Origin: Escherichia coli
Lineage (GTDB): Bacteria > Pseudomonadota > Gammaproteobacteria > Enterobacterales > Enterobacteriaceae
DNA: 64,000 bases
Assembly (NCBI RefSeq): GCF_003018235.1
Contig: NZ_CP027437.1
Strand: one strand, 5' to 3'
The translations under genes were made by a program, and so were the position numbers. Below the pieces are notes generated by a model that did not search any database, was not told the DNA's origin, and was given only the letters and a program-made list of their open reading frames with translations. Below, in pieces: positions 44,629 to 57,800 of this stretch. How positions within the stretch are numbered: the first letter of the stretch is position 1; every line of letters begins with the position of its first letter.

Positions 44629-47220
44629 ATGCATCAATCTGGTTCTGTTTCTCTTTGTCGTTCCGCAATATCTGTTCTGGTGGCTACAGCGTTATATTCA
44701 CCCATAGCATTGGCATCAACAGTTGAGTATGGTGAGACAGTTGATGGTGTTGTCCTGGAAAAAGATATCCAGCTGGTTTATGGGACCGCCAATAATACGA
44801 AAATCAATCCTGGCGGAGAACAGCATATTAAAGAATTTGGTATAAGTAGTAATACTGAAATTAACGGCGGGTATCAGTACATTGAAATGAATGGCACCGC
44901 AGAATACTCAGTATTAAATGATGGTTATCAAATTGTTCAAATGGGTGGTGCGGCAAACCAGACTACCCTCAATAATGGTGTGCTACAGGTTTATGGCGCA
45001 GCGAATGATACTACCATTAAAGGCGGGCGCTTAATTATTGAAAAAGATGGGATTACCGTCTTTGCCGCTATCGAAAAGGGAGGATTACTGGAGGTTAAAG
45101 AGGGGGGGTTAGCATTTGCGGTAGATCAGAAAGCCGGCGGTGCTATTAAAACAACCACGCGGGCCATGGAGGTATTCGGAACAAACCGTCTCGGTCAGTT
45201 CGATATCAAGGATGGTATTGCTAATAATATGTTGTTGGAAAACGGCGGAAGTTTGCGAGTTGAAGAAAATGACTTCGCTTATAATACCACTGTGGATAAT
45301 GGCGGCTTACTGGAGGTTATGGATGGCGGGACTGCAACTGGCGTTGATAAAAAAGCAGGCGGAAAATTAATTGTCTCAACGAATGCGCTGGAAGTGAGTG
45401 GTACAAACAGTAAAGGCCAATTTAGTATAAAAGATGGTGTGTCCAAAAATTATGAACTGGATGATGGTTCCGGGCTCATTGTTATGGAGGACACGCAGGC
45501 CATTGACACTATCCTTGATGAGCATGCCACTATGCAATCGCTGGGAAAGGATACTGGTACGAGAGTGCAGGCAAATGCGGTATATGATCTCGGTCGATCA
45601 GATCAGAATGGAAGTATCACGTATTCCTCTAAAGCCATCTCTGAAAATATGGTTATCAACAATGGCCGCGCTAATGTCTGGGCTGGCACAATGGTTAACG
45701 TTTCAGTCAGAGGGAATGATGGCATTCTTGAGGTCATGAAGCCGCAAATAAATTATGCACCCGCTATGTTGGTGGGTAAGGTAGTGGTTTCTGAGGGCGC
45801 TTCTTTTAGAACGCATGGTGCCGTGGATACCAGCAAAGCGGATGTTTCGCTCGAAAATAGCGCATGGACCATCATTGCCGATATCACTACGACGAACCAA
45901 AACACTCGCCTCAACTTAGCCAACCTTGCGATGTCTGGCGCAAATGTGATTATGATGGCTGAGCCAGTGACTCGTTCATCTGTGACGGCAAGTGCGGAAA
46001 ATTTCACTACGTTGACCACCAATACCCTATCGGGAAACGGCAATTTTTATATGCGTACCGATATGGCTAATCATCAGAGCGATCAGCTCAACGTCACCGG
46101 TCAGGCAACAGGTGATTTCAAAATATTCGTTACGGACACCGGTGCCAGCCCGGCAGCAGGTGATAGCCTTACACTGGTAACAACGGGCGGCGGTGATGCT
46201 GCATTTACGTTGGGCAATGCCGGAGGCGTTGTTGATATCGGTACGTATGAATATACCTTGCTGGATAATGGCAACCATAGCTGGAGCCTCGCAGAGAATC
46301 GCGCGCAAATTACCCCTTCAACCACTGATGTGCTGAATATGGCGGCAGCACAACCGCTGGTATTTGATGCAGAACTGGACACCGTGCGTGAGCGTATTGG
46401 TAGCGTAAAAGGCGTTAATTACGATACGGCGATGTGGAGTTCGGCAATTAACACCCGCAACAACGTGACCACTGATGCGGGAGCTGGCTTTGAGCAAACA
46501 TTGACCGGGCTGACGCTCGGTATCGATAGCCGTTTCTCCCGTGAAGAAAGCAGCACAATTCGCGGCTTGTTCTTTGGTTACTCTCATTCTGATATTGGTT
46601 TTGATCGCGGCGGCAAAGGTAATATCGATAGCTATACCCTGGGGGCTTATGCTGGTTGGGAGCATCAGAACGGTGCCTATGTTGATGGGGTGGTGAAAGT
46701 TGACCGTTTTGCCAACACTATCCATGGCAAGATGAGTAATGGGGCAACAGCGTTTGGCGATTACAGTAGTAACGGCGCGGGTGCTCATGTCGAGAGCGGG
46801 TTCCGTTGGGTTGACGGATTGTGGAGTGTTAGACCCTATCTGGCCTTTACCGGCTTTACCACAGATGGTCAGGACTACACGTTATCAAACGGCATGCGCG
46901 CGGATGTGGGAAATACCCGCATATTACGCGCTGAAGCGGGAACAGCGGTAAGCTATCACATGGACCTGCAAAACGGTACGACGCTGGAACCCTGGCTGAA
47001 AGCCGCCGTACGTCAGGAATACGCCGATTCTAACCAGGTGAAAGTTAATGACGATGGCAAATTTAATAATGATGTGGCTGGAACCCGTGGCGTTTATCAG
47101 GCTGGGATAAGGTCATCGTTTACCCCGACGTTAAGCGGTCATTTGTCTGTCAGCTATGGCAATGGCGCAGGGGTAGAATCACCGTGGAATACTCAGGCGG
47201 GTGTGGTCTGGTCGTTCTGA
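44629..47220 (+). CDS. yejO: Intact autotransporter YejO (passenger domain plus C-terminal beta-barrel)
   Basis: 863 aa with a signal peptide, repetitive passenger domain and autotransporter beta-domain ending ...GVVWSF. It is not IS-disrupted as in K-12. Confidence 0.8.
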   Translation: MHQSGSVSLCRSAISVLVATALYSPIALASTVEYGETVDGVVLEKDIQLVYGTANNTKINPGGEQHIKEFGISSNTEINGGYQYIEMNGTAEYSVLNDGYQIVQMGGAANQTTLNNGVLQVYGAANDTTIKGGRLIIEKDGITVFAAIEKGGLLEVKEGGLAFAVDQKAGGAIKTTTRAMEVFGTNRLGQFDIKDGIANNMLLENGGSLRVEENDFAYNTTVDNGGLLEVMDGGTATGVDKKAGGKLIVSTNALEVSGTNSKGQFSIKDGVSKNYELDDGSGLIVMEDTQAIDTILDEHATMQSLGKDTGTRVQANAVYDLGRSDQNGSITYSSKAISENMVINNGRANVWAGTMVNVSVRGNDGILEVMKPQINYAPAMLVGKVVVSEGASFRTHGAVDTSKADVSLENSAWTIIADITTTNQNTRLNLANLAMSGANVIMMAEPVTRSSVTASAENFTTLTTNTLSGNGNFYMRTDMANHQSDQLNVTGQATGDFKIFVTDTGASPAAGDSLTLVTTGGGDAAFTLGNAGGVVDIGTYEYTLLDNGNHSWSLAENRAQITPSTTDVLNMAAAQPLVFDAELDTVRERIGSVKGVNYDTAMWSSAINTRNNVTTDAGAGFEQTLTGLTLGIDSRFSREESSTIRGLFFGYSHSDIGFDRGGKGNIDSYTLGAYAGWEHQNGAYVDGVVKVDRFANTIHGKMSNGATAFGDYSSNGAGAHVESGFRWVDGLWSVRPYLAFTGFTTDGQDYTLSNGMRADVGNTRILRAEAGTAVSYHMDLQNGTTLEPWLKAAVRQEYADSNQVKVNDDGKFNNDVAGTRGVYQAGIRSSFTPTLSGHLSVSYGNGAGVESPWNTQAGVVWSF

Positions 47221-47282
47221 TAACAGAAAATAAACAGGCCGTGATGTGTCGCGGTCTGTTTATCGAATTAAATGCAGATATA

Positions 47283-47314
47283 AAAAAACCAACCGCAAAG
47301 GTTGGTTTTTTTTG
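47283..47314 (+). terminator. Rho-independent terminator of yejO
   Basis: accaaccgcaaaggttggt hairpin followed by tttttttt. Confidence 0.8.
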
Positions 47315-47377
47315 GGATTTTTGCACGAGAGTAGTTTAATTGAGTATGTAACTACATGATTTAAAATAATTTGTCTA

Positions 47378-47410
47378 ATTCAACTTTTAAACCGTATAAC
47401 CAAACGTATA
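47378..47410. promoter_or_regulatory. Left-arm integrase binding repeats (cgtataaccaa / cgtataactaa)
   Basis: The same 11-mer family as the four copies between int and proL at 57450-57530. Confidence 0.55.
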
Positions 47411-47620
47411 ACTAAAATGATTTGCTGAAAAAGTGTACAATTTAAAGACAGATTTTCCCGGGGGTTATAAAACTGCGAAAATTTCGTAGTTATCCCGATA
47501 CGGGGATCACCATATCGGGATTGGATACCTGGCTTTTTTTCCGGTTAACTCTTAATCATCTGCGTGATCATAATGATGATTCAGCCAGCGCAATTTTGCG
47601 TTATCGGGAATATCAGCAAG

Positions 47621-47902
47621 TTACCGCCGTAACCGCTCCGGCTTCTTCCAGTGGTAGGTAATTTTTTCTTTCTCCCGATACATCTCCACGCGGCGCTTGT
47701 AGGCCAGCATTTCAAGAACGCGGATCCGTATGTCGCGCATATCCACATCATTAAGCTGGATACCATCACGGCGCATCACCTCAGCAACCACACACGCATA
47801 ATTTTCGGCGGTCACGCAGTCCGGCTGCGTAGCCTGTTCGTCAGCCTGCTGGCTGATTCCGGCAACTCGGCGGATTAATCGCAGTAGTTCGGCTTCTGTC
47901 AT
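47621..47902 (-). CDS. Hypothetical 93-aa island cargo protein
   Basis: ORF only; I recognise no domain. It is the leftmost gene of the island, downstream of the capsid gene. Confidence 0.4.
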   Translation of the reverse strand: MTEAELLRLIRRVAGISQQADEQATQPDCVTAENYACVVAEVMRRDGIQLNDVDMRDIRIRVLEMLAYKRRVEMYREKEKITYHWKKPERLRR

Positions 47903-48043
47903 TGTGCCCCCTCGCGCTGGTTAAGAAAACAAGCTCAGATTTTTTGTAAAGAATCTGTCACGCTAAAAGATGTCGAACAAAAAACAATCACCTTCATCAT
48001 CTTTTTTACATAAAAACAATTAAAAACAATAATTTACATACAT

Positions 48044-48141
48044 GATGATGATGGCGATAAAATCATAAAAATGCGCTTTTTTCCGCGCCGACCCGCCCCG
48101 TGGACAGGCCCACCCCACCAGGAGGACCCGCAAAAAAGGCG
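48044..48141. repeat. Copy 1 of a roughly 100-bp island-internal direct repeat (TGAT-N9-ATCA dyad ... ccgcgccgacccgccccgtgga...accaggaggaccc)
   Basis: About 80% identical to 50594..50690. Each copy sits just past the terminator of one minus-strand gene and upstream of the next. Confidence 0.7.
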
Positions 48142-48169
48142 GCATATTTGCCGCCCTGTAAACTGTGTA

Positions 48170-50065
48170 TCAGCCGGAAGCCGTACCGCTCGATTTGACC
48201 ATGCCGCGATAGTCCAGCGCGGCCACACCGGCATCAATACGAACCTTCCAGGCGACACCGTCAACGATGAAGCCTTCCTGCTGTTCAAGGTAAGGCTCGT
48301 CATTACCATCAAGATAAGCCACCTCGATTGTGTCCGTTCCCTGTGCTGAAAGCATGTACCATTGATTCACACTAACATCATCCAGACGAGGATCGACAAT
48401 AATATCCAGTAGCTTGTGATACGGGTTAAATATGCCGCTGTTTTTATCGGCCCCGAAAGGTGCGGTTGAATTAATCATTTGCAACGCGCGATCTTCCAGT
48501 GCTGCCGGAACTAACAGGAATTTAGGTGCAATGTTCAGCACCTCGCCGTTTTTATCTTTCTGTATGCGCATAGCGTGACGTGCTGCACTAAGCCCCGGCG
48601 TCGTCATGCCAAGATCGATAAGGTTGTTGTGTTTTTTATCAAACAAGGCCACACCATCAGACAGCTTGCCGTTTCCTGTAAGTACCAGATTAACCAGATT
48701 GCCAACCGTTCTGGCTGCTGCACGCCCCATAGCCATTGGCACGGTAGACAACTGATCAAGGTCATCATTGATTATCGCCTGGCGGGTAATACTGAAAATA
48801 TTCCCGTATGTAGCCAGCGCGATTGGCTCACCGCGATCGCTGGTGGTGATGTATTTATATTCTGCCCCTTCCGGCACTTTGTTTAATGTTGAAAAACCAT
48901 TCAGGCCAACGCGGCGGGCTTCACGGAAGTTTGACAGAGAACCTTTTTTAGTCCACTGGCGGAATGTTTCGCCGCTGTGCTCCCAGCCTGCCAGCACTGA
49001 TTTTTCAGCGCCACCAGCCAGGATGTAAGTAAAATCGCTGCTGCTGTGAGTGAATGCCGCATTAACAATCTGCGAACGCGTGCTGTAGCTGCCTGTGCTT
49101 ATGCCACGATGGGTTAATGATGCCTGTGCCATATCGAAAAGGCTCATCATGGCGTAAGGATTGCCGCGTTCGGCCTGTTCGTGACCAAGACGTGCGTTAA
49201 GCCCCTGACGCATGGCATCGCCGGTTATGTTGCCGTTATCCGTATACGCGTAGTAAAGATTTGCGGGGGTGTTTTTGTTGGTGGGTGTCGATTCCTTGCC
49301 CATAGCCAATAAAAGGCGTTCGCGCGCATCCTCAACGCTACAACCTGCGTCTGCCAGGCAGTTAATAGCCAGGTCGTTATATTTCCCGTTGAACGTGCCA
49401 AACAATTCGCGAATGCCGTTTAGTCGTTCCTGTTCGCCGCTGGCTTTGTTCTGGTTGATCATGTTTTTGATACTTTCCGGCATATTTGAAAAATCTCCGA
49501 TTCGTTTTGATTCAATTCTGGCCATTGCTGTAATCGCGGGTATAACCTCATCTGCGAAGCCGTTAGCCTTACACTCATTGCCATCCATCCAGGTTTCCGC
49601 CTCCATCATGGCGGTGATTTCCTGTTTGCTTTTTCCCGTTCTTCCGGCGTAGGTTTCCGCCATCGTGTCGCCCAGCTTGTCCATCAGGTCAGCAAAGCGG
49701 CGAACGTCGCCCGACACGCCAGAAGTAACACCACGGGGGGCATGTATCATCATCATTGCGTTAGCGGGCATCACGATGTGATCGCCACACATGGCAATAA
49801 ACGAGGCCATAGAAGCCGCTATGCCTTCAATGTGTACGATTTTTTTCGCCGGATGATTTTTCAGGGCGTTATAGATAGCCAGCCCCTGAAAGATGTCGCC
49901 GCCTGGTGAATGGATACGCAAATGGATTTCAGACACGTCACCACACGCGCTTATCTGGTCGGTTAATGTTGACGCCTGTACACCGTAACCGCCTATTTCG
50001 TCATAAATGCGAACGTGAAGGGCGTCGGCTTTTGCCTGTATGCTGTACCAGGATTTCATAGCCAT
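48170..50065 (-). CDS. Prohead protease (ClpP/S49-like) fused to an HK97-fold major capsid protein
   Basis: 631 aa. The N-terminal roughly 200 aa have the ClpP-type motif HSPGGDIF and a Ser/His context. The C-terminal roughly 400 aa resemble HK97-family major capsid proteins. A terminator hairpin ggcggcaaatatgccgcc+T6 follows the stop. Confidence 0.7.
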   Translation of the reverse strand: MAMKSWYSIQAKADALHVRIYDEIGGYGVQASTLTDQISACGDVSEIHLRIHSPGGDIFQGLAIYNALKNHPAKKIVHIEGIAASMASFIAMCGDHIVMPANAMMMIHAPRGVTSGVSGDVRRFADLMDKLGDTMAETYAGRTGKSKQEITAMMEAETWMDGNECKANGFADEVIPAITAMARIESKRIGDFSNMPESIKNMINQNKASGEQERLNGIRELFGTFNGKYNDLAINCLADAGCSVEDARERLLLAMGKESTPTNKNTPANLYYAYTDNGNITGDAMRQGLNARLGHEQAERGNPYAMMSLFDMAQASLTHRGISTGSYSTRSQIVNAAFTHSSSDFTYILAGGAEKSVLAGWEHSGETFRQWTKKGSLSNFREARRVGLNGFSTLNKVPEGAEYKYITTSDRGEPIALATYGNIFSITRQAIINDDLDQLSTVPMAMGRAAARTVGNLVNLVLTGNGKLSDGVALFDKKHNNLIDLGMTTPGLSAARHAMRIQKDKNGEVLNIAPKFLLVPAALEDRALQMINSTAPFGADKNSGIFNPYHKLLDIIVDPRLDDVSVNQWYMLSAQGTDTIEVAYLDGNDEPYLEQQEGFIVDGVAWKVRIDAGVAALDYRGMVKSSGTASG

Positions 50066-50708: not shown

Positions 50709-50984
50709 TCACTTCTGCGGGTAGTTGCGCCATACTGCTTTACCAATACCAGCTATCCCCATTTGTTTTTCAGTGCGATTAACTGACCTTTTCAGAGCGC
50801 CTAAATCATCCGGCGGCTCCGGTGGCCTCTGTGCCTTCCTGGAACATTCCTGCCGTCGCATTGCCACCTGTGCGCGTTCCTTGTCTGTCTCCACCAGCAT
50901 CATCACTTCACCCCATCGCGCCGCCGCCCTCCTGTAAAATCCTTTCGCCTCGAGTTCCTCCGCTATACGGTCATGTACCATCAT
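50709..50984 (-). CDS. PerC-family transcriptional activator-like protein
   Basis: 91 aa with the N-terminal motif VHDRIAEELEAKGFYRRAAARW, typical of PerC/Pch-like proteins. A terminator hairpin gccggagcaatccggc+T6 follows the stop. Confidence 0.55.
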   Translation of the reverse strand: MMVHDRIAEELEAKGFYRRAAARWGEVMMLVETDKERAQVAMRRQECSRKAQRPPEPPDDLGALKRSVNRTEKQMGIAGIGKAVWRNYPQK

Positions 50985-51994
50985 TCACCACCTCCCGCAG
51001 ATGGCGATAAGCTGGCTTTGCCTCCAAGTGGATTAAACCTTATCGCCTCTGTCAGAAAATCCGGCGCAAAATGCGCGTAAACCATTGTCTGTTGTATGCT
51101 CGCGTGCCCCAGTATCCTTTGCAGTGTGATTATATTCCCCCCGTTCATCATGAAATGTGTCGCGAATGTGTGCCGTAATACGTGGGTGGCCTGGCCTTTT
51201 GGTAAGTCCGGTTTTACTGACTTGATGACCTCCCTGAACTCCAGATAATCCACATCAAACAACTGTCCCTTTTTACCTCTCGTTACAAGTTCCAGAACGT
51301 CATCAGACACCGGAACAGCTCGCGCCCGTCCGTTCTTCGTCTCCGTAAACATTACCTTGTTACTGACTATATTTTCCCGTCGTAGCGTCGATGACTCCCC
51401 ATAACGCGCCCCCGTCGAAAGACACAAAACAGCCAGCGCGAGACAGTCGCCTTTGGCAATATTCAGTAAATGATTAACCTCATCATCACCAAGAAAACTC
51501 ATAGCCTTGTTTGGTGCTTTCAGCTTGCGTAATCCACTCAAAGGGTTTTCACCGTGATACATACCGCATTCGATTAGCCCCCTGAACATTCCTGATATAA
51601 CCGACAAATCACGGTTAACAGTCAACGGACTAAGGCCGCATCCCAGCTTGTCGGCTCTGTATTCCATGAGCATTGCGCGGGTTATGTTGCAGATTCGTGG
51701 ATCCCCCATTTCACGGATAACCTTCATCATGCGCATAAACGATTGTTCGCCGTATTCCTCCGATCTTCCGATAAACTCCATCCATAAGTTAGCCAGATCA
51801 GATAACAGGCGAATATCTGCGGCGCGTGACTCCCAGGGCTTATTATGACAATGAAGCAGTATGTATTTTTCGTAATCACGGGCTTTTGTCTGCGAGGGAA
51901 AAATCTTTCTTATCCGTCGCCCGTAAGCGCCATTTGGCCTTACGTCAACCAGCCAGCGACCATCCTCACACTTCCTTATCGCCATGCTCCACAC
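50981..51994 (-). CDS. Internal tyrosine recombinase (phage integrase family)
   Basis: 337 aa with a C-terminal catalytic region HVLRHTFAT...HASIQQTMVYAHF (H-x-x-R ... Y). Overlapping start and stop with flanking genes. Confidence 0.75.
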   Translation of the reverse strand: MWSMAIRKCEDGRWLVDVRPNGAYGRRIRKIFPSQTKARDYEKYILLHCHNKPWESRAADIRLLSDLANLWMEFIGRSEEYGEQSFMRMMKVIREMGDPRICNITRAMLMEYRADKLGCGLSPLTVNRDLSVISGMFRGLIECGMYHGENPLSGLRKLKAPNKAMSFLGDDEVNHLLNIAKGDCLALAVLCLSTGARYGESSTLRRENIVSNKVMFTETKNGRARAVPVSDDVLELVTRGKKGQLFDVDYLEFREVIKSVKPDLPKGQATHVLRHTFATHFMMNGGNIITLQRILGHASIQQTMVYAHFAPDFLTEAIRFNPLGGKASLSPSAGGGE

Positions 51995-52234: not shown

Positions 52235-52430
52235 ACTCCTCACTTTTACTCCTCACTTTTTGTTATTCCTCGCCTGCTCCTCACCTGTTTTTTTTGCTTC
52301 TGTAATGCGTTGTTTTGCAATGTATTTTTTATTCCTCACTTTTTGACCTATATACAGGTGAGAAAGTGAGGAGTAGCGCTGATTTTTTGTTAAATTACTC
52401 GCTACCCTCACTTTTACTCCTCACTTTTTA
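52235..52430. repeat. Iteron array (CCTCACTTTTT, at least 6 direct copies and 1 inverted) - candidate origin of replication
   Basis: Copies at 52237, 52249, 52280 (variant), 52333, 52405, 52417 and an inverted gtgaggag at 52361. They lie immediately 3' of the rep gene, AT-rich, as in SaPI/PICI origins. Confidence 0.7.
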
Positions 52431-53828
52431 CAGTGGGTGCACATCATCGCCATCAATAGCGATTACGCCGTCACCTTCCAGCTTGTACAGCCAGCGCCGG
52501 AAATTTTTCATCTCATACCCCAGCTTTTTCATATCGTCGCGGAGAAGGGCGATAGTGCACGCCTCCCCGTGTGCTGTCCTCGTTCTGATGCACTGCCATA
52601 GCGCGGCGTGATTCTCCGTCTTGTTTCCGGCCTCCTCGATGCGCTCCAGTTCAACGGGTGGGCGCGGTTTATCCACAACCACCAGCGACGTGATTAACTC
52701 CCCGTCAGCGTCGGTAAAAAGCTCCACCACACGTAAATCGTATGCGGCCTCTTTCAGTTCCTCCGCGTCCTTCATTTTGGTGCAGGAGATAACCAGGGCT
52801 TCACAGTCCGCACCTTCACGGCGAATACGGTATTCAGCGTCCAGAGATGCACGAAATGCACTGGAACCACGCGCCCCTTTCGTCTCATCCTTGCCGGAAT
52901 GGTGAACCACCAGCACCGTGGCCCCTGTGCGTCGTTTCAGTTCGTCACATCCACGGATAAACGCCCCCATGTCACGGGAATCATTTTCATCATTGCCGCC
53001 AAAGCAACGCGCCAGCGTATCCAGAATAATCATGCGTACAGGTTTACCCGTTTCCCGCTCCACCTGGCTGGCTGCGATAACCATTTCATCAACATCAAGC
53101 GGGGCCGCCGGAAAAATGGGACGGTTTACCAGATACAGATTTTTCACCTGCTCACCGTGCACAACCTCCCAGGCTTTTACACGACGTGGAACGCCGATAC
53201 CGCCTTCACCAACCACATAGAGAACCGCACCATGTGCAACCCTGCGGCCTCCCCAGTAGCGACCTGTGGAAACGTGACACGCCCACGATCCGGCAAGGAA
53301 TGATTTATAGGAACCGCTCGCCCCGTATATGCTGCATAGCGATACCGCCGGAATAATTCCCTTAACCACGTAATCAAGTTGCGTGTCGTATCCGGCAGAA
53401 CCAATGCTCATCGGTAGTTTGGTTTTCCGCTGGTGGCTTTTTTCTTCCTCCTGCGCTTTACCGCGCTCCCGTTCCAGATATTCGCGCCAGTTCTCCCGCT
53501 TCTGGCTGTGCATCCCATCTGGGTAATAATTCGCATCCCGTACACCTGCTGCCGCCAGCTTTTGCGCTATGGCATTAATGCTCGATGGCTTGATATGGCC
53601 TGCCCTGTACAGACGGACGCAATAGCGGCCCTCGTCGATGATTCTCAGGTCTGGCAGTTCAGCCAGTTGATCATCAGCCAGCACAACGGGAGGCACATTA
53701 TCGCCAGCAAGTCGCCCGTCCTGCTCCTGCCACTGCTTCGCGTGTGCCCAGGCATCACTACCCGCAAAAATAATGACTTCTGTCATTTTGTCGTAAGGCT
53801 GTTTTCTTAAGTTCGGTGCGCTCTTCAT
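52428..53828 (-). CDS. Replication protein: RecA/DnaB-fold (RepA-like) AAA ATPase with an N-terminal extension
   Basis: 466 aa with Walker A GASGSYKS and Walker B MIILDTLAR, consistent with the RepA/primase-associated helicase-loader family of satellite elements. Confidence 0.7.
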   Translation of the reverse strand: MKSAPNLRKQPYDKMTEVIIFAGSDAWAHAKQWQEQDGRLAGDNVPPVVLADDQLAELPDLRIIDEGRYCVRLYRAGHIKPSSINAIAQKLAAAGVRDANYYPDGMHSQKRENWREYLERERGKAQEEEKSHQRKTKLPMSIGSAGYDTQLDYVVKGIIPAVSLCSIYGASGSYKSFLAGSWACHVSTGRYWGGRRVAHGAVLYVVGEGGIGVPRRVKAWEVVHGEQVKNLYLVNRPIFPAAPLDVDEMVIAASQVERETGKPVRMIILDTLARCFGGNDENDSRDMGAFIRGCDELKRRTGATVLVVHHSGKDETKGARGSSAFRASLDAEYRIRREGADCEALVISCTKMKDAEELKEAAYDLRVVELFTDADGELITSLVVVDKPRPPVELERIEEAGNKTENHAALWQCIRTRTAHGEACTIALLRDDMKKLGYEMKNFRRWLYKLEGDGVIAIDGDDVHPL

Positions 53829-54121
53829 TTGCCTTTTCTCCCTCTGGCTATCTGGTTGCGTAACTCCGCTATGTGCTGTGCTATCGTTCCTGAATCATCA
53901 CAGCAATATTTCTTTTCCTTCAGAGGCGTAAAATCCTTCTCAAATTGCAACCGGAACATCACATTCTCAAATAAATATCCAGAACGTATAAAAGTAATAA
54001 ATGTGCTGTTAACTCTCGTCACTGTCACATAATTACCGTCACCATCCAGATAAATATCACCTTTAATAATTTCAGGGCGAGGAAGGCCGCTGGCAGTTGC
54101 GCCAGTATTTTTCTTTTTCAT
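53825..54121 (-). CDS. Hypothetical 98-aa protein
   Basis: ORF overlapping the rep start by 4 nt (coupled). No recognisable domain. Confidence 0.45.
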   Translation of the reverse strand: MKKKNTGATASGLPRPEIIKGDIYLDGDGNYVTVTRVNSTFITFIRSGYLFENVMFRLQFEKDFTPLKEKKYCCDDSGTIAQHIAELRNQIARGRKGK

Positions 54122-54137
54122 GGTATTTACCTTTCTG

Positions 54138-54419
54138 TTATTCGTCGTTCTGAATAAAACGTTGTTCTCTTATTTCAGAAAGTATCCTGTAAACATTCTT
54201 ATCACTTACCACTTGATGATAATCATCATCCTCAATAAAACACATCAGCGCCTTATTACGGATATATATTTCTCTGGAAAGAAACTGTATCGCCGCGACT
54301 GCCCTTTCTTCTGTAATTCCGTTCATTGACTCACGTTCAATAATAATATTAAGTGCGGCGGATGCGTCTTCCAGTTCAATAAGGTAAGCAGCGAGGTTAT
54401 TTTTTATTCCATTAGACAT
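54138..54419 (-). CDS. Hypothetical 93-aa acidic protein
   Basis: ORF in the operon upstream of rep. Confidence 0.45.
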   Translation of the reverse strand: MSNGIKNNLAAYLIELEDASAALNIIIERESMNGITEERAVAAIQFLSREIYIRNKALMCFIEDDDYHQVVSDKNVYRILSEIREQRFIQNDE

Positions 54420-54615
54420 GGCTCACCCCCTGACAGATTTTTGCAGCGAATACAGCAACACAACCGGACGGGCAAAGGTTACGCGCTTCGCGTTCCGTCC
54501 AGGCGGTTACGTGGATGATTTGATGGTCTGACGCGCCAAAGGCAATAAAGCGCCAGGTGAATTTATTCAGGTTGTGCGAGTCCCGCCCTTGCGGGTGTGT
54601 GATATGATTTAACAT
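54412..54615 (-). CDS. Hypothetical 67-aa protein (MLNHITHPQGRD...); the real gene inside the 353-aa six-frame ORF
   Basis: ATG at 54615 with a GAGGT RBS 6 nt upstream. The rest of the 54412..55473 ORF runs antisense through a promoter region and other genes and is implausible. Confidence 0.5.
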   Translation of the reverse strand: MLNHITHPQGRDSHNLNKFTWRFIAFGASDHQIIHVTAWTEREARNLCPSGCVAVFAAKICQGVSHV

Positions 54616-54712
54616 AGCTACCTCGATACTATTGCTATCGTTGGTGGTTAGAAGCCTGTGGGTGTTAGCGGCACCTACGGGCTTCGCAGTTTCTGAACCT
54701 TGAACACTCAAG

Positions 54713-54794
54713 GTGTAAGACACAACATAAAACAACAGTGTCTTACACGTCAACCCTTTAAAATAGTTTTTTTTCGTGTATATTGTCTTACACC
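54713..54794. promoter_or_regulatory. Divergent promoter/operator region with three GTGTCTTACAC sites (one inverted)
   Basis: gtgtaagacac at 54713, gtgtcttacac at 54739 and tgtcttacacc at 54784. They lie between the minus-strand 67-aa gene and the plus-strand 61-aa gene. Confidence 0.6.
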
Positions 54795-54814
54795 AAAAAC
54801 ATGAGGGGTTAGAC

Positions 54815-55000
54815 ATGGCAACAGGTCCAAAGAATGCAAAATCACAATCTGTAACTGCACGTATTGCCCATGAAATTATTGAAGGCATGGAAAACGTGAA
54901 AGAAGATGGCGAAAGTACAGGGCAGTTTATAAGCGCAGCCATGCGTGGCGAGATCAAACGCCGCCAACGGAAAAAAACCAAAGAATCAGATAAGGAATAA
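54815..55000 (+). CDS. Small 61-aa basic protein (MATGPKNAKSQS...), candidate repressor/regulator of the switch region
   Basis: ATG at 54815 preceded by a GAGGGG RBS. The six-frame ORF begins at an upstream GTG at 54776, inside operator site 3. Confidence 0.45.
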   Translation: MATGPKNAKSQSVTARIAHEIIEGMENVKEDGESTGQFISAAMRGEIKRRQRKKTKESDKE

Positions 55001-55003
55001 CTT

Positions 55004-55147
55004 ATGCAGCAAGTACTATACTGGCTTGGCTCTTTGTTTTTATTTGCTTTCCTCCTGGGAAATTGCATCAGCAATGAACACGTCAGTAATGAGCGTGTAT
55101 GCAGGAGTGATGAAAAAAAGATTCCACGCCTCATATACAATGATTGA
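55004..55147 (+). CDS. Candidate 47-aa hydrophobic peptide (MQQVLYWLGSLFLFAFLLGNC...)
   Basis: ATG 4 nt after the upstream stop, with an AAGGAA RBS. It has a single predicted TM helix. It is below the 60-aa ORF cut-off, and a competing 68-aa ORF lies in another frame at 54945..55151. Confidence 0.25.
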   Translation: MQQVLYWLGSLFLFAFLLGNCISNEHVSNERVCRSDEKKIPRLIYND

Positions 55148-55477
55148 TTAGCTCGTGCAGCACTAAAGCAACGCAAGGCCAAAGAGCAGGAATAGCCCAC
55201 CAGCAAGCCAGCGCACTGATCACATTGCCCACCAGCCGCAAATGTGGCATTGTTGGCTATGCTCATGCGTTGGGGATAACGTGTAGCTTGTGTCGAGGGG
55301 CCACCGTAGCGGGTGGCCTTTGTTTTGCCTGTTATCCGGCAATTGTGGCGCTTCGCCACACGGTTGATATAATTCCCCTGCACTGATCCATTTTTTTCGC
55401 AGCAGGTTAATTGTTCGCAAGGGCGCTCCGGCAACGGGGCGCTTTTTGTTATGTTCATCGCGTTACGCCTCACACCA

Positions 55478-55684
55478 TTACGCAGCCGTTCCGCGCGCTT
55501 CTTCCTCGCGCTCTTTCAGCCAGGCCAGCACTTCATCTTCATACCAGCCAACACGACGCAGACCGATTTTGAAGCCTTTCGGGAATTTTCCGGCGTTGAT
55601 CATGTCCTGTAGCGAACTGTCCGCCTTGATGCGAAGAATATTTTTTACTTCCTGACGGGTGAGTATTTTTCTGATTACTTCCAT
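55478..55684 (-). CDS. alpA: AlpA-family phage/island transcriptional regulator (MerR-like HTH)
   Basis: 68 aa; ...LRIKADSSLQDMINAGKFPKGFKIGLRRVGWYEDEVLAWL... matches the AlpA/Xis-like HTH pattern. Confidence 0.7.
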   Translation of the reverse strand: MEVIRKILTRQEVKNILRIKADSSLQDMINAGKFPKGFKIGLRRVGWYEDEVLAWLKEREEEARGTAA

Positions 55685-56189: not shown

Positions 56190-57449
56190 TTATACCGCAC
56201 GGATACCCCTTTTACCACCAGCAAGGGTAACGCCCGTTGCCGCTGCCTCAACAAATTCCCCCCACCAGCGCATCAGCACAATGCGTTTTTCCAGGTAGTT
56301 ACTGCGGTTGTAGGCTCTCCTTACTTCGTTGGTGTCCACGTGGGCCAGTGCGGCCTCGATTACGTCCGGCTCGAATCCTTCCTCGTTTGCTGCTGTGCTG
56401 AATATGGCGCGTAATCCATGAGACACCAGCACGCCAGCGAACCCCATGCGCCGTAATGCTGCGTTGGCGGTCTGGCTGTTCATCGGCTGGCGTGGGTCTT
56501 TCAGGCTCGGGAAAACATGCTCGCGGTGGTGGCTGATTGGTTTCATGGCCTCCAGCACTGCCATAGCCTGACCGCAAAGCGGGATAACGTGATCACGTCG
56601 CATCTTCATACGTCCGGCTGGTATCGTCCATTGTTGCTCGTCCAGGTCGATTTCTTCCCAGCGTGCTGACGATGCCTCAACAGGACGGGTTACGGTAAGT
56701 AGCTGCCACTCAATCAGTAGTCTTGTCTGCCGTTCTGTTGCCGATACGGATAAAGCCCGCATAAGCTCCGGTAGCTGCTCGGGGCGGATTGTTGGCATAT
56801 GTTTTTTTACTGGGGTGGGGAAGGCCTTGCGCACGTTTGTAGCCGGATTGGTATCAATCATCCCGCTGTTGGCGGCGTAATCCATAACTTCATTGATGCG
56901 CTGTAAAACCCGCTTGAGCGTTTCCAGGTTGCCGCGTTCCTTGATGGGGGTGAGTATCTCCACGAACCTGCGGGCGGTGAGGGTGTCTACTGGCGTGTCA
57001 CCGATGAACGGGAATACATATTTCTCCAGCGATCTCCATATGTCTTTAATTGTGTTGGGTGCAAGATTCTGGCTGATTTTCACCTGGTACCATGCCGCTG
57101 CTACATTTTCGAACGTGTTGCCCTGTCTCCGTTCCTCTGCTTCGCGTTTTCGTCGCTCGTGTTCCTGTGGGTCGGTGCCGGAAGAAATTAACGTCCTGTA
57201 CTCGCTACGGCGTTTTCTGGCATCAGCCAAGGAAACATCATCAAGCGATCCAAAACTCAGCAATATTCTTTTTTTGTCCAATGGGCGGTAGTAGGAAAAT
57301 CGCCAGAGTTTTGATCCAGACGGTTTGACCAGGAGAAAAAGCCCTCCGCCGTCCTGTAGGGTGTACTCCTTTTCCGCTGGTCTGGCTGCTTTGATCTGCA
57401 CTGTGGTTAATGGGGTTGTTTTTCTCGCCATATGTCTATGATTCCACAC
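56190..57449 (-). CDS. int: P4-type tyrosine integrase (N-terminal DUF4102 arm-binding domain)
   Basis: 419 aa. The N-terminus LTTVQIKAARPAEKEYTLQDGGGLFLLVKPSGSKLWRFSY is characteristic of P4/CP4-57-type integrases. C-terminal HGLR...Y catalytic residues. Adjacent to the tRNA. Confidence 0.85.
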   Translation of the reverse strand: MWNHRHMARKTTPLTTVQIKAARPAEKEYTLQDGGGLFLLVKPSGSKLWRFSYYRPLDKKRILLSFGSLDDVSLADARKRRSEYRTLISSGTDPQEHERRKREAEERRQGNTFENVAAAWYQVKISQNLAPNTIKDIWRSLEKYVFPFIGDTPVDTLTARRFVEILTPIKERGNLETLKRVLQRINEVMDYAANSGMIDTNPATNVRKAFPTPVKKHMPTIRPEQLPELMRALSVSATERQTRLLIEWQLLTVTRPVEASSARWEEIDLDEQQWTIPAGRMKMRRDHVIPLCGQAMAVLEAMKPISHHREHVFPSLKDPRQPMNSQTANAALRRMGFAGVLVSHGLRAIFSTAANEEGFEPDVIEAALAHVDTNEVRRAYNRSNYLEKRIVLMRWWGEFVEAAATGVTLAGGKRGIRAV

Positions 57450-57530: not shown

Positions 57531-57649
57531 TAGCTTATAAATCCGGTGATGTCCGGTGACTAAAAACCATAAAAAAACCCGCCAATCAAGTGATTAGCGG
57601 GCTTTTCGTGTCTGAAACTGTTATTTCCGGTGGTATCCGGTGGGCGATT

Positions 57650-57726
57650 TGGTCGGCACGAGAGGATTTGAACCTCCGACCCCCGACACCCCATGACGGT
57701 GCGCTACCAGGCTGCGCTACGTGCCG
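57650..57726 (-). tRNA. proL: tRNA-Pro (GGG)
   Basis: Plus strand is the exact reverse complement of CGGCACGUAGCGCAGCCUGGUAGCGCACCGUCAUGGGGUGUCGGGGGUCGGAGGUUCAAAUCCUCUCGUGCCGACCA. Confidence 0.95.
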
Positions 57727-57800
57727 ACTCGTGGCTGCTAATACTACCGTTTTCCACACCGATTGCAAGTAAGATATTTTGCTAACTGATTTATAATTAA

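What the first reader, a model, noticed from the sequence alone, without database searches (positions are those of the whole stretch)
53825..54615. Three small co-transcribed ORFs of unknown function upstream of rep (67, 93 and 98 aa)
These overlapping, coupled genes occupy the position where satellites encode derepression, helper-interference or anti-phage factors. Examples are P4 epsilon-like factors, PICI Ppi/Rpp-type factors, and E. coli host division inhibitor Icd-like proteins. I could recognise none of them from sequence. They are prime candidates for novel functions.
Basis: inference. Interest (0 to 1): 0.6.

Follow-up and report, generated by a model that had tools for sequence, protein, structure and literature searches.

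The report
Icd-like, orphan and RgdR-like satellite genes
The three small genes are real. They form the front of the replication operon of an E. coli phage satellite (a PICI-type island); two belong to known families (phage P1 Icd and the PICI protein RgdR/DUF4222), and only the middle gene is a rare orphan, so the locus is largely ordinary.

Summary
Three minus-strand ORFs sit at exactly the stated coordinates: 54615→54412 (67 aa), 54419→54138 (93 aa) and 54121→53825 (98 aa). Each has a Shine-Dalgarno sequence. The junctions are −8, +16 and −4 nt, the last into the RepA-type helicase gene. dN/dS is 0.17–0.44.

"None recognisable" is wrong for two of them. ORF1 is a curated Icd-like protein (NF033153, 60.7 bits) and aligns directly to phage P1 Icd. 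ORF3 is DUF4222, 40% identical to RgdR (ECs1581) of the cf-PICI EcCIEDL933, a protein reported in all analysed E. coli PICIs. ORF2 is a rare acidic three-helix protein with no family or informative fold match. It occurs in 1 of 5426 complete E. coli genomes.

In all 15 related islands the layout is Icd-like, then 1–3 unrelated small ORFs, then DUF4222 overlapping rep by 4 bp. The layout parallels P1 c4-icd-ant and P4 CI RNA, Icd-like ORF, epsilon, alpha. ORF2 therefore sits where P1 and P4 encode derepression factors. That is positional evidence only.

Seen in passing: a covarying leader hairpin upstream of ORF1, and a divergent YlcI-like gene with operator-like repeats.

Verdict: new member of a known kind, of modest interest.

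The parts
54412..54615 (-). ORF1, 67 aa: Icd-like protein, first gene of the operon
   Evidence: NF033153 at 60.7 bits against a cutoff of 25. BLASTP to phage P1 Icd gives 37% identity over 43 aa, E 4e-6; my own family HMM scores P1 Icd at E 6e-11. An identical protein is named Icd-like in public databases. dN/dS 0.36-0.44. SD GAGG.
54138..54419 (-). ORF2, 93 aa: rare acidic three-helix protein in the variable slot. Its start overlaps the ORF1 stop by 8 nt.
   Evidence: No Pfam, NCBIfam, PHROG or PADLOC hit. Six clusters among 5.8 billion, all E. coli. Five more distant 88-96 aa relatives among 1.84 billion representatives. DNA present in 1 of 5426 complete E. coli genomes. AF2 pLDDT 84 with three helices. 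Only generic helical fold matches. pI 4.65 and GC 0.37. dN/dS 0.17-0.31. Always lies directly upstream of DUF4222.
53825..54121 (-). ORF3, 98 aa: DUF4222 / RgdR-family protein. Its stop overlaps the rep start by 4 nt.
   Evidence: PF13973 at 48.2 bits against a cutoff of 27. 40% identity over 65 aa to RgdR ECs1581, E 1e-13. pI 9.5. KGD at residues 20-22, where RgdR has RGD. The 4-nt overlap with rep is present in all 15 islands examined.
52428..53828 (-). rep: RepA-type (AAA_25) helicase, the replication gene of the satellite
   Evidence: PF13481 at 144 bits. phrog_2850 at E 8e-253. Annotated 'helicase RepA family protein' in SCU-111.
54651..54685 (-). Covarying hairpin (or inverted repeat) in the predicted 5' leader of the operon
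   Evidence: 17 distinct loci, 12 pairs, 85% of cells paired, 9 pairs changed on both sides, 0 of 500 shuffles as good, slid controls 31-45%. Leader fold z = -2.99. No Rfam family.
54616..54652 (-). Near-invariant leader segment UCUAACCACCAACG...GAGGUAGCU, carrying the ORF1 Shine-Dalgarno sequence
   Evidence: Conserved across E. coli islands and in Photorhabdus and Providencia, while the preceding hairpin varies.
54724..54753 (-). Predicted sigma-70-type promoter of the icd-like-to-rep operon
   Evidence: TTGACG-18-TATGTT. This is a consensus match only.
54713..54793 (.). Three copies of GTGTAAGACAC (54713-23, 54738-48, 54783-93) bracketing the divergent promoters; operator-like
   Evidence: These are the only three matches in the 64-kb window. 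The same arrangement is found in L003 and L004. L009 has a different palindrome at the same spacing, together with a diverged YlcI-like N-terminus.
54815..55000 (+). Divergent YlcI/YnfO-family gene (61 aa), candidate repressor of the operon
   Evidence: NF041551 at 64.5 bits against a cutoff of 30. Conserved at this position in related islands. The repressor role is inferred.
55478..55684 (-). AlpA-family regulator of the island
   Evidence: PF05930 at 33.3 bits against a cutoff of 21.
56190..57449 (-). Island integrase next to tRNA-Pro (57650-57726)
   Evidence: Pfam integrase domains. tRNA-Pro(ggg).

Best explanation
The three ORFs are real genes. They form the promoter-proximal half of the early/replication operon of a roughly 10-kb PICI-type phage satellite inserted at tRNA-Pro between yejO and yejM of E. 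coli.

The gene order is: promoter, structured leader, icd-like (ORF1), variable-slot gene (ORF2), rgdR-like DUF4222 gene (ORF3), RepA helicase.

The cassette is the PICI counterpart of the phage P1 immI operon (c4 RNA, icd, ant) and of the P4 left operon (CI RNA, Icd-like ORF, epsilon, orf151, orf106, alpha).

Shown here:
- family membership of ORF1 and ORF3;
- the conserved gene order;
- the overlapping stop/start junctions;
- purifying selection on all three genes;
- the variability of the slot between the Icd-like gene and DUF4222.

Inferred:
1. After helper-phage induction, the operon is transcribed as one mRNA. Induction would act through AlpA, through relief of a repressor at the GTGTAAGACAC repeats, or both.
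2. Translation of the Icd-like ORF is needed for the translationally coupled downstream gene, as icd is for ant in P1. The Icd-like protein itself transiently blocks host cell division, or is toxic.
3. ORF2 occupies the position that holds the helper or self derepression factor in P1 (Ant) and P4 (epsilon). It is most likely a small protein-binding factor aimed at a helper-phage or host protein, which would explain why this slot is so variable.
4. The basic RgdR-like protein is made in fixed ratio with Rep. It acts as a transcription or replication cofactor, through a Tudor/SH3-like domain plus a basic C-terminal helix.
For: ORF reality and coupling.

ORF1 is Icd-like:
- NF033153 at 60.7 bits;
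- direct alignment to P1 Icd;
- the P1 record states that icd inhibits cell division and is apparently required for ant expression, and that icd and ant1 overlap by 4 nt.

P4 parallel:
- the old P4 'cI ORF' carries an Icd-like domain (73.9 bits) just downstream of the CI/C4 RNA;
- it is followed by epsilon with an 8-nt overlap, the same junction as ORF1/ORF2.

ORF3 is RgdR family. The literature reports RgdR in all analysed E. coli PICIs, as a pleiotropic regulator with weak non-specific DNA binding.

Conserved architecture in 15 islands, with a helicase, primase or DUF927 as rep.

The slot holds at least six unrelated small-protein families.

ORF2 and ORF3 are AT-rich (GC 0.37 and 0.40, against 0.52-0.55 in the flanking genes), which suggests a mosaic origin.

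An Icd-like gene in a satellite-type six-gene cluster that includes a primase was the likely effector of phage-triggered growth arrest in ECOR61.

The DUF4222 model looks Tudor/SH3-like, with top matches to the UvrD/PcrA C-terminal domain and to CarD.
Against: - There are no expression or phenotype data for this locus.
- ORF2 has no sequence or fold similarity to P4 epsilon, P1 Ant or any known protein. Its assignment rests on position alone.
- No C4/CI-type RNA is detectable upstream of ORF1, so the P1/P4 regulatory logic may not carry over.
- ORF1 and the P4 Icd-like ORF both match the HMM but do not align pairwise.
- The known RgdR phenotypes concern LEE and motility, not satellite biology. 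ORF3 also lacks the RGD motif.
Confidence: 0.7

Rival explanations
1. ORF2, and possibly the whole variable slot, is anti-phage or helper-interference cargo, or an anti-defence gene, rather than a derepression factor. On this reading the satellite uses the slot as a small hotspot for factors that block competing phages or host defences.
For: - The slot content differs between otherwise related islands, with at least six unrelated families.
- ORF2 is very rare and AT-rich, as expected of exchanged cargo.
- Small acidic helical proteins are typical inhibitors that bind other proteins (my own knowledge).
- Satellites are known to carry defence hotspots (PMC13586616 abstract).
Against: - No PADLOC hit.
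- The genes are tiny and translationally coupled inside the core replication operon, unlike the described P4 hotspot (near gop-beta-cII) or the accessory positions reported for Gram-positive PICIs (SaPIs), at the 3' end of the island or next to int.
- ORF2 is always adjacent to a DUF4222 gene, including in relatives only 37-45% identical. That suggests a linked core function.
Confidence: 0.2
2. The cassette is mainly a phage-triggered growth-arrest (abortive-infection or superinfection-exclusion) module. [quoted passage not shown]
For: In E. coli ECOR61, a prophage-type cluster of six linked genes, including an Icd-like protein and a DNA primase, arrested growth when a phage accessory gene was expressed. 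The effect was lost when the Icd-like gene was removed. P1 Icd inhibits cell division.
Against: - The ECOR61 protein has a long N-terminal extension, and the reconstituted effect was muted.
- The phenotype fits equally well with satellite induction by a helper cue followed by uncontrolled replication, which is itself toxic.
- No sequence comparison with the ECOR61 genes was possible.
Confidence: 0.15
3. All three are plain replication accessories, such as a helicase loader or an origin-binding or remodelling factor, with no role in host or helper manipulation. The Icd-like and RgdR names would then reflect side effects of overexpression.
For: The DUF4222 stop overlaps the rep start by 4 nt in every island, whatever the type of rep. 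All three lie in the rep operon.
Against: - The same DUF4222 family accompanies three unrelated replication proteins (AAA_25 helicase, D5_N primase, DUF927), which argues against a specific loader.
- In P1 and P4 the Icd-like ORFs sit in immunity or derepression operons, not replication modules.
- RgdR changes the transcription of chromosomal genes.
Confidence: 0.15

Closest known systems
cf-PICI EcCIEDL933 (= CP-933C / OI-51 / Sakai Sp7), genes ECs1577-ECs1582, including RgdR (ECs1581)
   Same: Same order: Icd-like (ECs1577, NF033153 at 64.7 bits), small ORFs, DUF4222/RgdR, then a 4-nt overlap into the replication gene. The island also has int, AlpA and PerC/Pch. ORF3 is 40% identical to RgdR.
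   Different: Sp7 has three unrelated small ORFs in the slot, none related to ORF2. Its rep is a primase rather than a RepA helicase. It has a full capsid and terminase module, whereas this island has only a protease/capsid fusion. RgdR has RGD where ORF3 has KGD.
Phage P1 immI operon (c4 antisense RNA, icd, ant1/ant2)
   Same: ORF1 is homologous to Icd. It is the first small ORF of an operon, with its stop overlapping the start of the next gene. A structured RNA element lies immediately upstream of the Icd ribosome-binding site.
   Different: No C4-family RNA is detected here. The downstream gene is a 93-aa orphan, not the 347-aa Ant. The operon continues into a replication gene.
Satellite phage P4 left operon (isrK-like RNA, CI RNA, Icd-like ORF, epsilon, orf151, orf106, alpha)
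   Same: A satellite early operon ending in the replication gene. An Icd-like ORF (73.9 bits) is followed by a roughly 95-aa gene with an 8-nt overlap, and an AlpA/Vis-like gene lies upstream.
   Different: ORF2 is not similar to epsilon, and ORF3 is not similar to orf106 or orf151. ORF1 does not align pairwise with the P4 ORF. P4 has C4 and isrK RNAs; this island does not.
ECOR61 prophage-encoded growth-arrest system (Silas et al., bioRxiv 10.1101/2023.04.06.535777)
   Same: An Icd-like protein in a cluster of small genes with a DNA primase. [quoted passage not shown]
   Different: [quoted passage not shown] Here the 67-aa form is supported by the conserved SD and ATG, and by the database annotation.

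Membership tests
Icd-like proteins (NCBIfam NF033153; prototype phage P1 Icd) | Scores above the curated HMM cutoff | tested here: met
   60.7 bits against a cutoff of 25, covering profile positions 1-46 of 48.
Icd-like proteins (NCBIfam NF033153; prototype phage P1 Icd) | Direct similarity to the experimentally studied P1 Icd | tested here: met
   BLASTP gives 37% identity over 43 aa, E 4e-6. A family HMM scores P1 Icd at E 6e-11, with the shared FxWRF...TExEAR...P.G..F.A+ core.
Icd-like proteins (NCBIfam NF033153; prototype phage P1 Icd) | Small leader-position ORF translationally coupled to the next gene | tested here: met
   8-nt overlap with the ORF2 start. Overlaps of 8-14 nt in 11 related islands. 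P1 has a 4-nt overlap and P4 an 8-nt overlap.
Icd-like proteins (NCBIfam NF033153; prototype phage P1 Icd) | Controlled by a C4/CI-type antisense RNA encoded just upstream | tested here: not met
   No RF01695 or RF01394 hit, even at E up to 10. The same search finds both in P4. A different, covarying hairpin is present instead.
Icd-like proteins (NCBIfam NF033153; prototype phage P1 Icd) | Inhibits host cell division when expressed | not testable with these tools
   Needs an expression and microscopy experiment.
RgdR / DUF4222 (Pfam PF13973) | Scores above the Pfam gathering threshold | tested here: met
   48.2 bits against 27, covering domain positions 1-52 of 53.
RgdR / DUF4222 (Pfam PF13973) | Similarity to the characterised RgdR (ECs1581); about 99 aa and strongly basic | tested here: met
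   40% identity over 65 aa, E 1e-13. ORF3 is 98 aa with pI 9.5; RgdR is 99 aa with pI 10.1.
RgdR / DUF4222 (Pfam PF13973) | RGD tripeptide at residues 20-22, important for LEE activation | tested here: not met
   ORF3 has K20-G21-D22. G21 and D22 are invariant, and position 20 varies (K, R or P) across islands.
RgdR / DUF4222 (Pfam PF13973) | Encoded in a PICI immediately upstream of the replication gene | tested here: met
   A 4-nt overlap with rep here and in all 15 islands examined. The literature says RgdR is in all analysed E. coli PICIs.
RgdR / DUF4222 (Pfam PF13973) | Activates LEE1 and represses motility | not testable with these tools
   Needs reporter and motility assays.
P4 epsilon (helper derepression protein) | Sequence or fold similarity to epsilon | tested here: not met
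   BLASTP and family HMMs against all P4 reading frames gave nothing better than E about 1. No phage hit for ORF2. No significant BFVD fold match.
P4 epsilon (helper derepression protein) | Position: a roughly 95-aa gene overlapping the stop of the Icd-like ORF in a satellite early operon | tested here: met
   ORF2 is 93 aa with an 8-nt overlap. P4 epsilon is 95 aa with an 8-nt overlap.
P4 epsilon (helper derepression protein) | Binds the helper repressor and induces the helper prophage | not testable with these tools
   Needs binding and prophage-induction assays.
Known anti-phage defence systems (PADLOC-DB) | Any protein of the cassette matches a defence-system model | tested here: not met
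   No hit at E up to 0.1 for the three ORFs, rep or five neighbouring small ORFs.
PICI / cf-PICI satellites (context of the cassette) | int, alpA and rep in one direction next to a specific att site; about 10-15 kb; no tail or lysis genes | tested here: met
   tRNA-Pro, integrase, AlpA, RepA helicase, PerC and a capsid/protease fusion, in about 10 kb between yejO and yejM.
PICI / cf-PICI satellites (context of the cassette) | Complete capsid and packaging module (portal, connectors, terminase), as defines a cf-PICI | tested here: not met
   Only a ClpP-protease/major-capsid fusion and a 93-aa ORF lie between PerC and the chromosomal yejO.
PICI / cf-PICI satellites (context of the cassette) | Induced and mobilised by a helper phage | not testable with these tools
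   Needs induction and transfer experiments.

The most novel reading that the evidence does not exclude
The ORF2 family may be a new helper-directed factor, for example an anti-repressor. It would be expressed by translational coupling to the Icd-like leader ORF, as P4 epsilon and P1 Ant are. The whole variable slot between the Icd-like gene and rgdR in E. coli PICIs would then be a fast-evolving collection of such helper- or host-targeting mini-proteins. In addition, the operon may be controlled by two elements not yet described for Gram-negative PICIs: a covarying leader hairpin that is not a C4/CI RNA, and a divergent YlcI/YnfO-type repressor with its own operators.
Probability: 0.2. Interest if true: 0.6.

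Novelty: new member of a known kind. Interest (0 to 1): 0.33.

Why it matters
As given, the finding mostly re-describes a standard part of E. coli PICI satellites. Some part of the 53700-54800 stretch matches in 1568 of 5426 complete E. coli genomes.

Its value is comparative. It shows that P1, P4 and PICIs share the same design: a structured leader, an Icd-like leader ORF, and a translationally coupled effector. It also shows that in PICIs a hypervariable slot of mini-proteins follows, and that the RgdR family is tightly coupled to the replication gene.

This points to concrete experiments on three open questions: how Gram-negative PICIs are kept silent and induced, what RgdR does for the satellite itself, and what the orphan slot proteins target.

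Tried and rejected
1. **C4/CI or IsrK RNA upstream of ORF1.** Rfam found nothing over the island (E up to 1) or over the leader (E up to 10). The same tool finds both RNAs in P4. Rejected as a member of either family.

2. **Defence-system membership.** No PADLOC hit.

3. **Solved-structure relatives by sequence.** Nothing for ORF1 or ORF3, nor for a profile of the YlcI-like protein.

6. **Similarity of ORF2 or ORF3 to any P4 protein.** None.

7. **A 353-codon version of ORF1.** The frame is open from 55473 (stop-to-stop from 55515) to 54412, and similar open frames recur in other islands. The upstream part has no Pfam domain. It is antisense to the curated YlcI-like gene and is conserved only where the DNA itself is conserved. 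The SD and ATG at 54615 are conserved, and NCBI's annotation uses them. I treat it as a shadow ORF.

8. **Wider sampling.**
   - The DUF4222 alignment had no stretch usable for a scan.
   - The ORF2-alignment scan of species genomes found no relatives.
   - The leader pattern matched only Photorhabdus and Providencia genomes, and nothing in IMG/VR or JGI metagenomes.

9. **Second target site for the leader hairpin within the island.** Only chance-level matches of 9-10 nt.

10. **att repeat between the tRNA region and the left end of the island.** No exact repeat of 12 nt or more.
Full report
**1. The observation**

The stretch 53825-54615 holds three ORFs on the minus strand:
- ORF1: 54615→54412, 67 aa.
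- ORF2: 54419→54138, 93 aa.
- ORF3: 54121→53825, 98 aa.

They are followed by a 466-aa gene at 53828→52428. All start with ATG and have purine-rich Shine-Dalgarno sequences (GAGG, GGGGGTGAG, AAAGG). The ORF1 stop overlaps the ORF2 start by 8 nt. ORF2 and ORF3 are 16 nt apart. The ORF3 stop overlaps the rep start by 4 nt.

No minus-strand terminator-like site lies among them, and a sigma-70-like promoter is predicted at 54753..54724.

NCBI's annotation pipeline calls the same three genes in a 98%-identical island of E. coli SCU-111. Comparison with homologues from other islands gives dN/dS of 0.36-0.44 (ORF1), 0.17-0.31 (ORF2) and 0.21-0.39 (ORF3). All three are therefore protein-coding genes under purifying selection.

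Co-transcription is a strong inference but has not been measured.

**2. The context**

The genes lie in an island of about 10 kb between the chromosomal genes yejO and yejM. The order, all on the minus strand unless marked, is:

1. tRNA-Pro(ggg), 57650-57726.
2. Integrase, 56190-57449.
3. A 77-aa ORF.
4. AlpA-family regulator, 55478-55684.
5. Two plus-strand genes, the first of the YlcI/YnfO family, 54815-55000.
6. The three ORFs.
7. An AAA_25 RepA-type helicase.
8. An 86-aa ORF.
9. A second tyrosine recombinase.
10. PerC.
11. A 75-aa ORF.
12. A ClpP-protease/major-capsid fusion, 48170-50065.
13. A 93-aa ORF.

This is the organisation of Gram-negative phage-inducible chromosomal islands (PICIs) described by Fillol-Salom et al. 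2018 (PMC6092414) and of the capsid-forming PICIs. Here the capsid module is reduced to a single fusion gene.

**3. ORF1 is an Icd-like protein**

- It scores 60.7 bits on NCBIfam NF033153, "host cell division inhibitor Icd-like protein", against a cutoff of 25.
- An identical protein already carries that name in public databases.
- I fetched phage P1 and compared directly. BLASTP to P1 Icd gives 37% identity over 43 residues (E 4e-6).
- An HMM built from ORF1's relatives scores P1 Icd at E 6e-11. The shared core is FxWRF…TExEAR…PxG…FxA(R/K).

In P1, icd sits just downstream of the c4 antisense RNA and overlaps ant1 by 4 nt. The record describes it as an inhibitor of cell division that is apparently required for ant expression.

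The PHROG label "transcriptional repressor" for ORF1's families most likely comes from phage P4. The old P4 "cI gene product" ORF, labelled transcriptional repressor in the record, contains an Icd-like domain (73.9 bits, residues 85-132). That ORF lies immediately downstream of the real immunity factor, the CI RNA (Rfam C4, 74.9 bits), and of an isrK-like RNA. In P4 the Icd-like ORF is followed by epsilon (95 aa) with an 8-nt overlap, then orf151, orf106 and the alpha primase.

**4. ORF3 is an RgdR-family (DUF4222) protein**

- Pfam PF13973 scores 48.2 bits against a threshold of 27.
- The only studied member is RgdR (ECs1581) of E. coli O157:H7. It is a 99-aa basic protein encoded on O-island 51 / CP-933C. 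It activates LEE1 transcription, represses motility and shows weak non-specific DNA binding (Flockhart et al. 2012, PMC3378721).
- Fillol-Salom et al. state that RgdR is encoded by all analysed E. coli PICIs.
- I fetched the Sakai copy of that island (Sp7, the cf-PICI EcCIEDL933). ECs1581 lies directly upstream of the primase with a 4-nt overlap.
- ORF3 is 40% identical to it over 65 residues (E 1e-13). ORF3 is 98 aa with pI 9.5.
- It has K-G-D where RgdR has the R-G-D motif at residues 20-22. G21 and D22 are invariant in my alignment, and position 20 varies.

**5. ORF2 is a rare orphan**

- It has no hit in Pfam, NCBIfam, PHROGs or PADLOC, and no tblastn hit in 50,697 phage records.
- Only six clusters among 5.8 billion proteins match it, all from E. 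coli.
- An exhaustive phmmer search of 1.84 billion representatives adds five diverged relatives of 88-96 aa. Three further hits to long multi-stretch proteins are probably spurious.
- Its DNA occurs in 1 of 5426 complete E. coli genomes.
- The AlphaFold model (pLDDT 84) is a three-helix protein, with helices at 9-30, 38-62 and 76-92.
- It is acidic (pI 4.65) and AT-rich (GC 0.37; ORF3 is 0.40; ORF1 and rep are 0.52 and 0.55).

Wherever a family member could be located, including relatives only 37-45% identical, it keeps the same two junctions. It overlaps the upstream ORF by 8 nt, and it lies 16-26 nt upstream of a DUF4222 gene that overlaps a helicase or a primase.

**6. The conserved architecture**

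All 15 islands examined share one plan:
- an Icd-like gene whose stop overlaps the next ORF; I tabulated overlaps of 8-14 nt in 11 of these islands;
- then 1-3 small ORFs;
- then DUF4222, overlapping the replication gene by 4 nt.

The replication gene may be an AAA_25 helicase, a D5_N primase or a DUF927 protein. The 15 islands are this window, SCU-111, W12-1, ETEC1747, MFDS1006657, Sakai Sp7, an O157 Texas strain, OkiPb01682, SCU-171, strain 4, IGC, and four draft or metagenome contigs.

An all-against-all BLASTP of the slot proteins finds at least six unrelated small families. The DUF4222 proteins are all basic (pI 9-10.9). Part of the queried 1.1 kb matches in 1568 of 5426 complete E. coli genomes.

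So ORF1 and ORF3 are conserved frame genes of this class of satellite, and ORF2 fills a hypervariable slot between them.

**7. How it most likely works**

Shown: family assignments, gene order, overlapping junctions, purifying selection and slot variability.

Inferred from the P1 and P4 parallels:
- The operon is silent until helper induction. It is then transcribed from the promoter at 54753..54724.
- The Icd-like ORF is translated first and passes ribosomes on to the coupled downstream gene.
- The Icd-like protein itself arrests division or growth. This matches the one functional report on a satellite-type Icd-like gene. In E. coli ECOR61, a six-gene cluster with an Icd-like protein and a primase arrested growth in response to a phage accessory gene, and removing the Icd-like gene abolished the effect (bioRxiv 10.1101/2023.04.06.535777).
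- ORF2 stands where P1 has Ant and P4 has epsilon, both of which inactivate a phage repressor. The most economical hypothesis is therefore a small protein-binding factor aimed at a helper or host protein, with slot variability reflecting different targets.
- The RgdR-like protein is produced in step with Rep, whatever the type of Rep. It probably acts as a general transcription or DNA cofactor. This fits RgdR's pleiotropic effects and weak DNA binding and the tentative Tudor-like fold.

The rival readings are anti-phage cargo, a dedicated abortive-infection module, and plain replication accessories. They are set out with their evidence in the Rival explanations section.

**8. Regulatory elements seen around the operon**

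*Operator-like repeats.* The only three copies of GTGTAAGACAC in the 64-kb window lie at 54713-23, 54738-48 and 54783-93. They bracket the predicted divergent promoters of the operon and of the YlcI/YnfO-family gene. Islands with the same YlcI-like N-terminal sequence (SQSVTARIAHE) have the same repeats at the same positions. An island with a diverged N-terminus (SQKLQARAPHE) has a different palindrome, TACTGGAATCCAGT, at the same spacing. This looks like a repressor-operator pair. My guess that the protein is a ribbon-helix-helix rests on the sequence pattern alone; no PDB relative was found.

*Leader hairpin.* The predicted 5' leader folds better than shuffled controls (z -2.99). A hairpin at 54651-54685 changes sequence between islands while keeping its pairing. 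Across 17 distinct sequences and 12 pairs, 85% of cells are paired, 9 pairs have changes on both sides, 0 of 500 shuffles reach the observed values, and slid controls give 31-45%. It is followed by a nearly invariant 37-nt stretch containing the ORF1 ribosome-binding site. That stretch is also found in Photorhabdus cinerea and Providencia heimbachae. It matches no Rfam family. A DNA palindrome bound by a protein would give similar covariation; only two G-U cells argue specifically for RNA.

**9. Novelty and verdict**

The cassette is a standard component of E. coli PICIs, and two of its three genes are in named families. The exact ORF1 and ORF3 proteins are already annotated as such.

I rate the finding as a new member of a known kind, with interest 0.33. 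The more novel possibilities remain untested: ORF2 as a new epsilon/Ant-like factor, the leader hairpin as a new regulatory RNA, and the YlcI-like protein as the missing PICI repressor.

Noticed in passing
window 54651-54685 (minus strand), with the conserved stretch 54616-54652: A hairpin in the predicted leader of the icd-like operon keeps its pairing across 17 islands while its sequence changes: 9 of 12 pairs have double changes, and 0 of 500 shuffles reach the observed values. It is followed by a near-invariant ribosome-binding region that is also present in Photorhabdus and Providencia. No Rfam family matches, and it is not C4/CI RNA.
   Followed up: partly
window 54713-54793 and 54815-55000 (+): Three copies of GTGTAAGACAC, the only ones in the window, bracket divergent promoters between the operon and a YlcI/YnfO-family gene. 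A related island has a different palindrome at the same spacing and a diverged YlcI-like N-terminus. The protein is a possible repressor for a class of PICI said in the literature to lack a known repressor.
   Followed up: partly
window 54412-55515 (minus strand): The ORF1 reading frame stays free of stop codons for 367 codons upstream, back into the end of alpA and antisense to the YlcI-like gene. Similar long open frames (222-498 codons) recur in 8 of 10 related loci. It is probably a shadow ORF, but it may explain database entries for Icd-like proteins with long N-terminal extensions.
   Followed up: partly
window 48170-50065 (-) and the left end of the island, about 47300-48170: The island carries a single ClpP-protease/major-capsid fusion gene and no portal, connector or terminase genes, unlike the described capsid-forming PICIs. 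Other islands with the same int, rep and second-integrase block carry the same fusion (L002, L007) or a lambda-like capsid/decoration/Nu1 set (L008).
   Followed up: no
window 50981-51994 (-): A second tyrosine recombinase (Int_N plus Phage_integrase, 337 aa) sits inside the operon between an 86-aa ORF and PerC, overlapping PerC by 4 nt. The block is conserved in several related islands (L005, L007, L008, L010).
   Followed up: no
window 52353-52430 (-): A long, near-perfect hairpin lies immediately downstream of the rep stop codon. Rfam reports it only as a spurious microRNA-like hit. It could be a terminator or part of the replication origin.
   Followed up: no
window 53825-54121 (N-terminus of ORF3) and alignment A2: The first 12 residues of the DUF4222 proteins (MKKKNSGxTASG) are almost invariant, even between members only 35-40% identical overall. 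Flockhart et al. noted a putative N-myristoylation-like motif here. Its role is unknown.
   Followed up: no
window 47200-47650 versus 57560-57740: No exact direct repeat of 12 nt or more was found between the tRNA-Pro side and the left end of the island, so the att sites were not defined.
   Followed up: partly
L021 (phage P4) 8168-8584 (-): The old P4 'cI protein' ORF, labelled transcriptional repressor, contains a clear Icd-like domain (73.9 bits) downstream of the CI RNA. This is the probable source of the misleading 'transcriptional repressor' label on PHROG families 6196 and 1743.
   Followed up: yes
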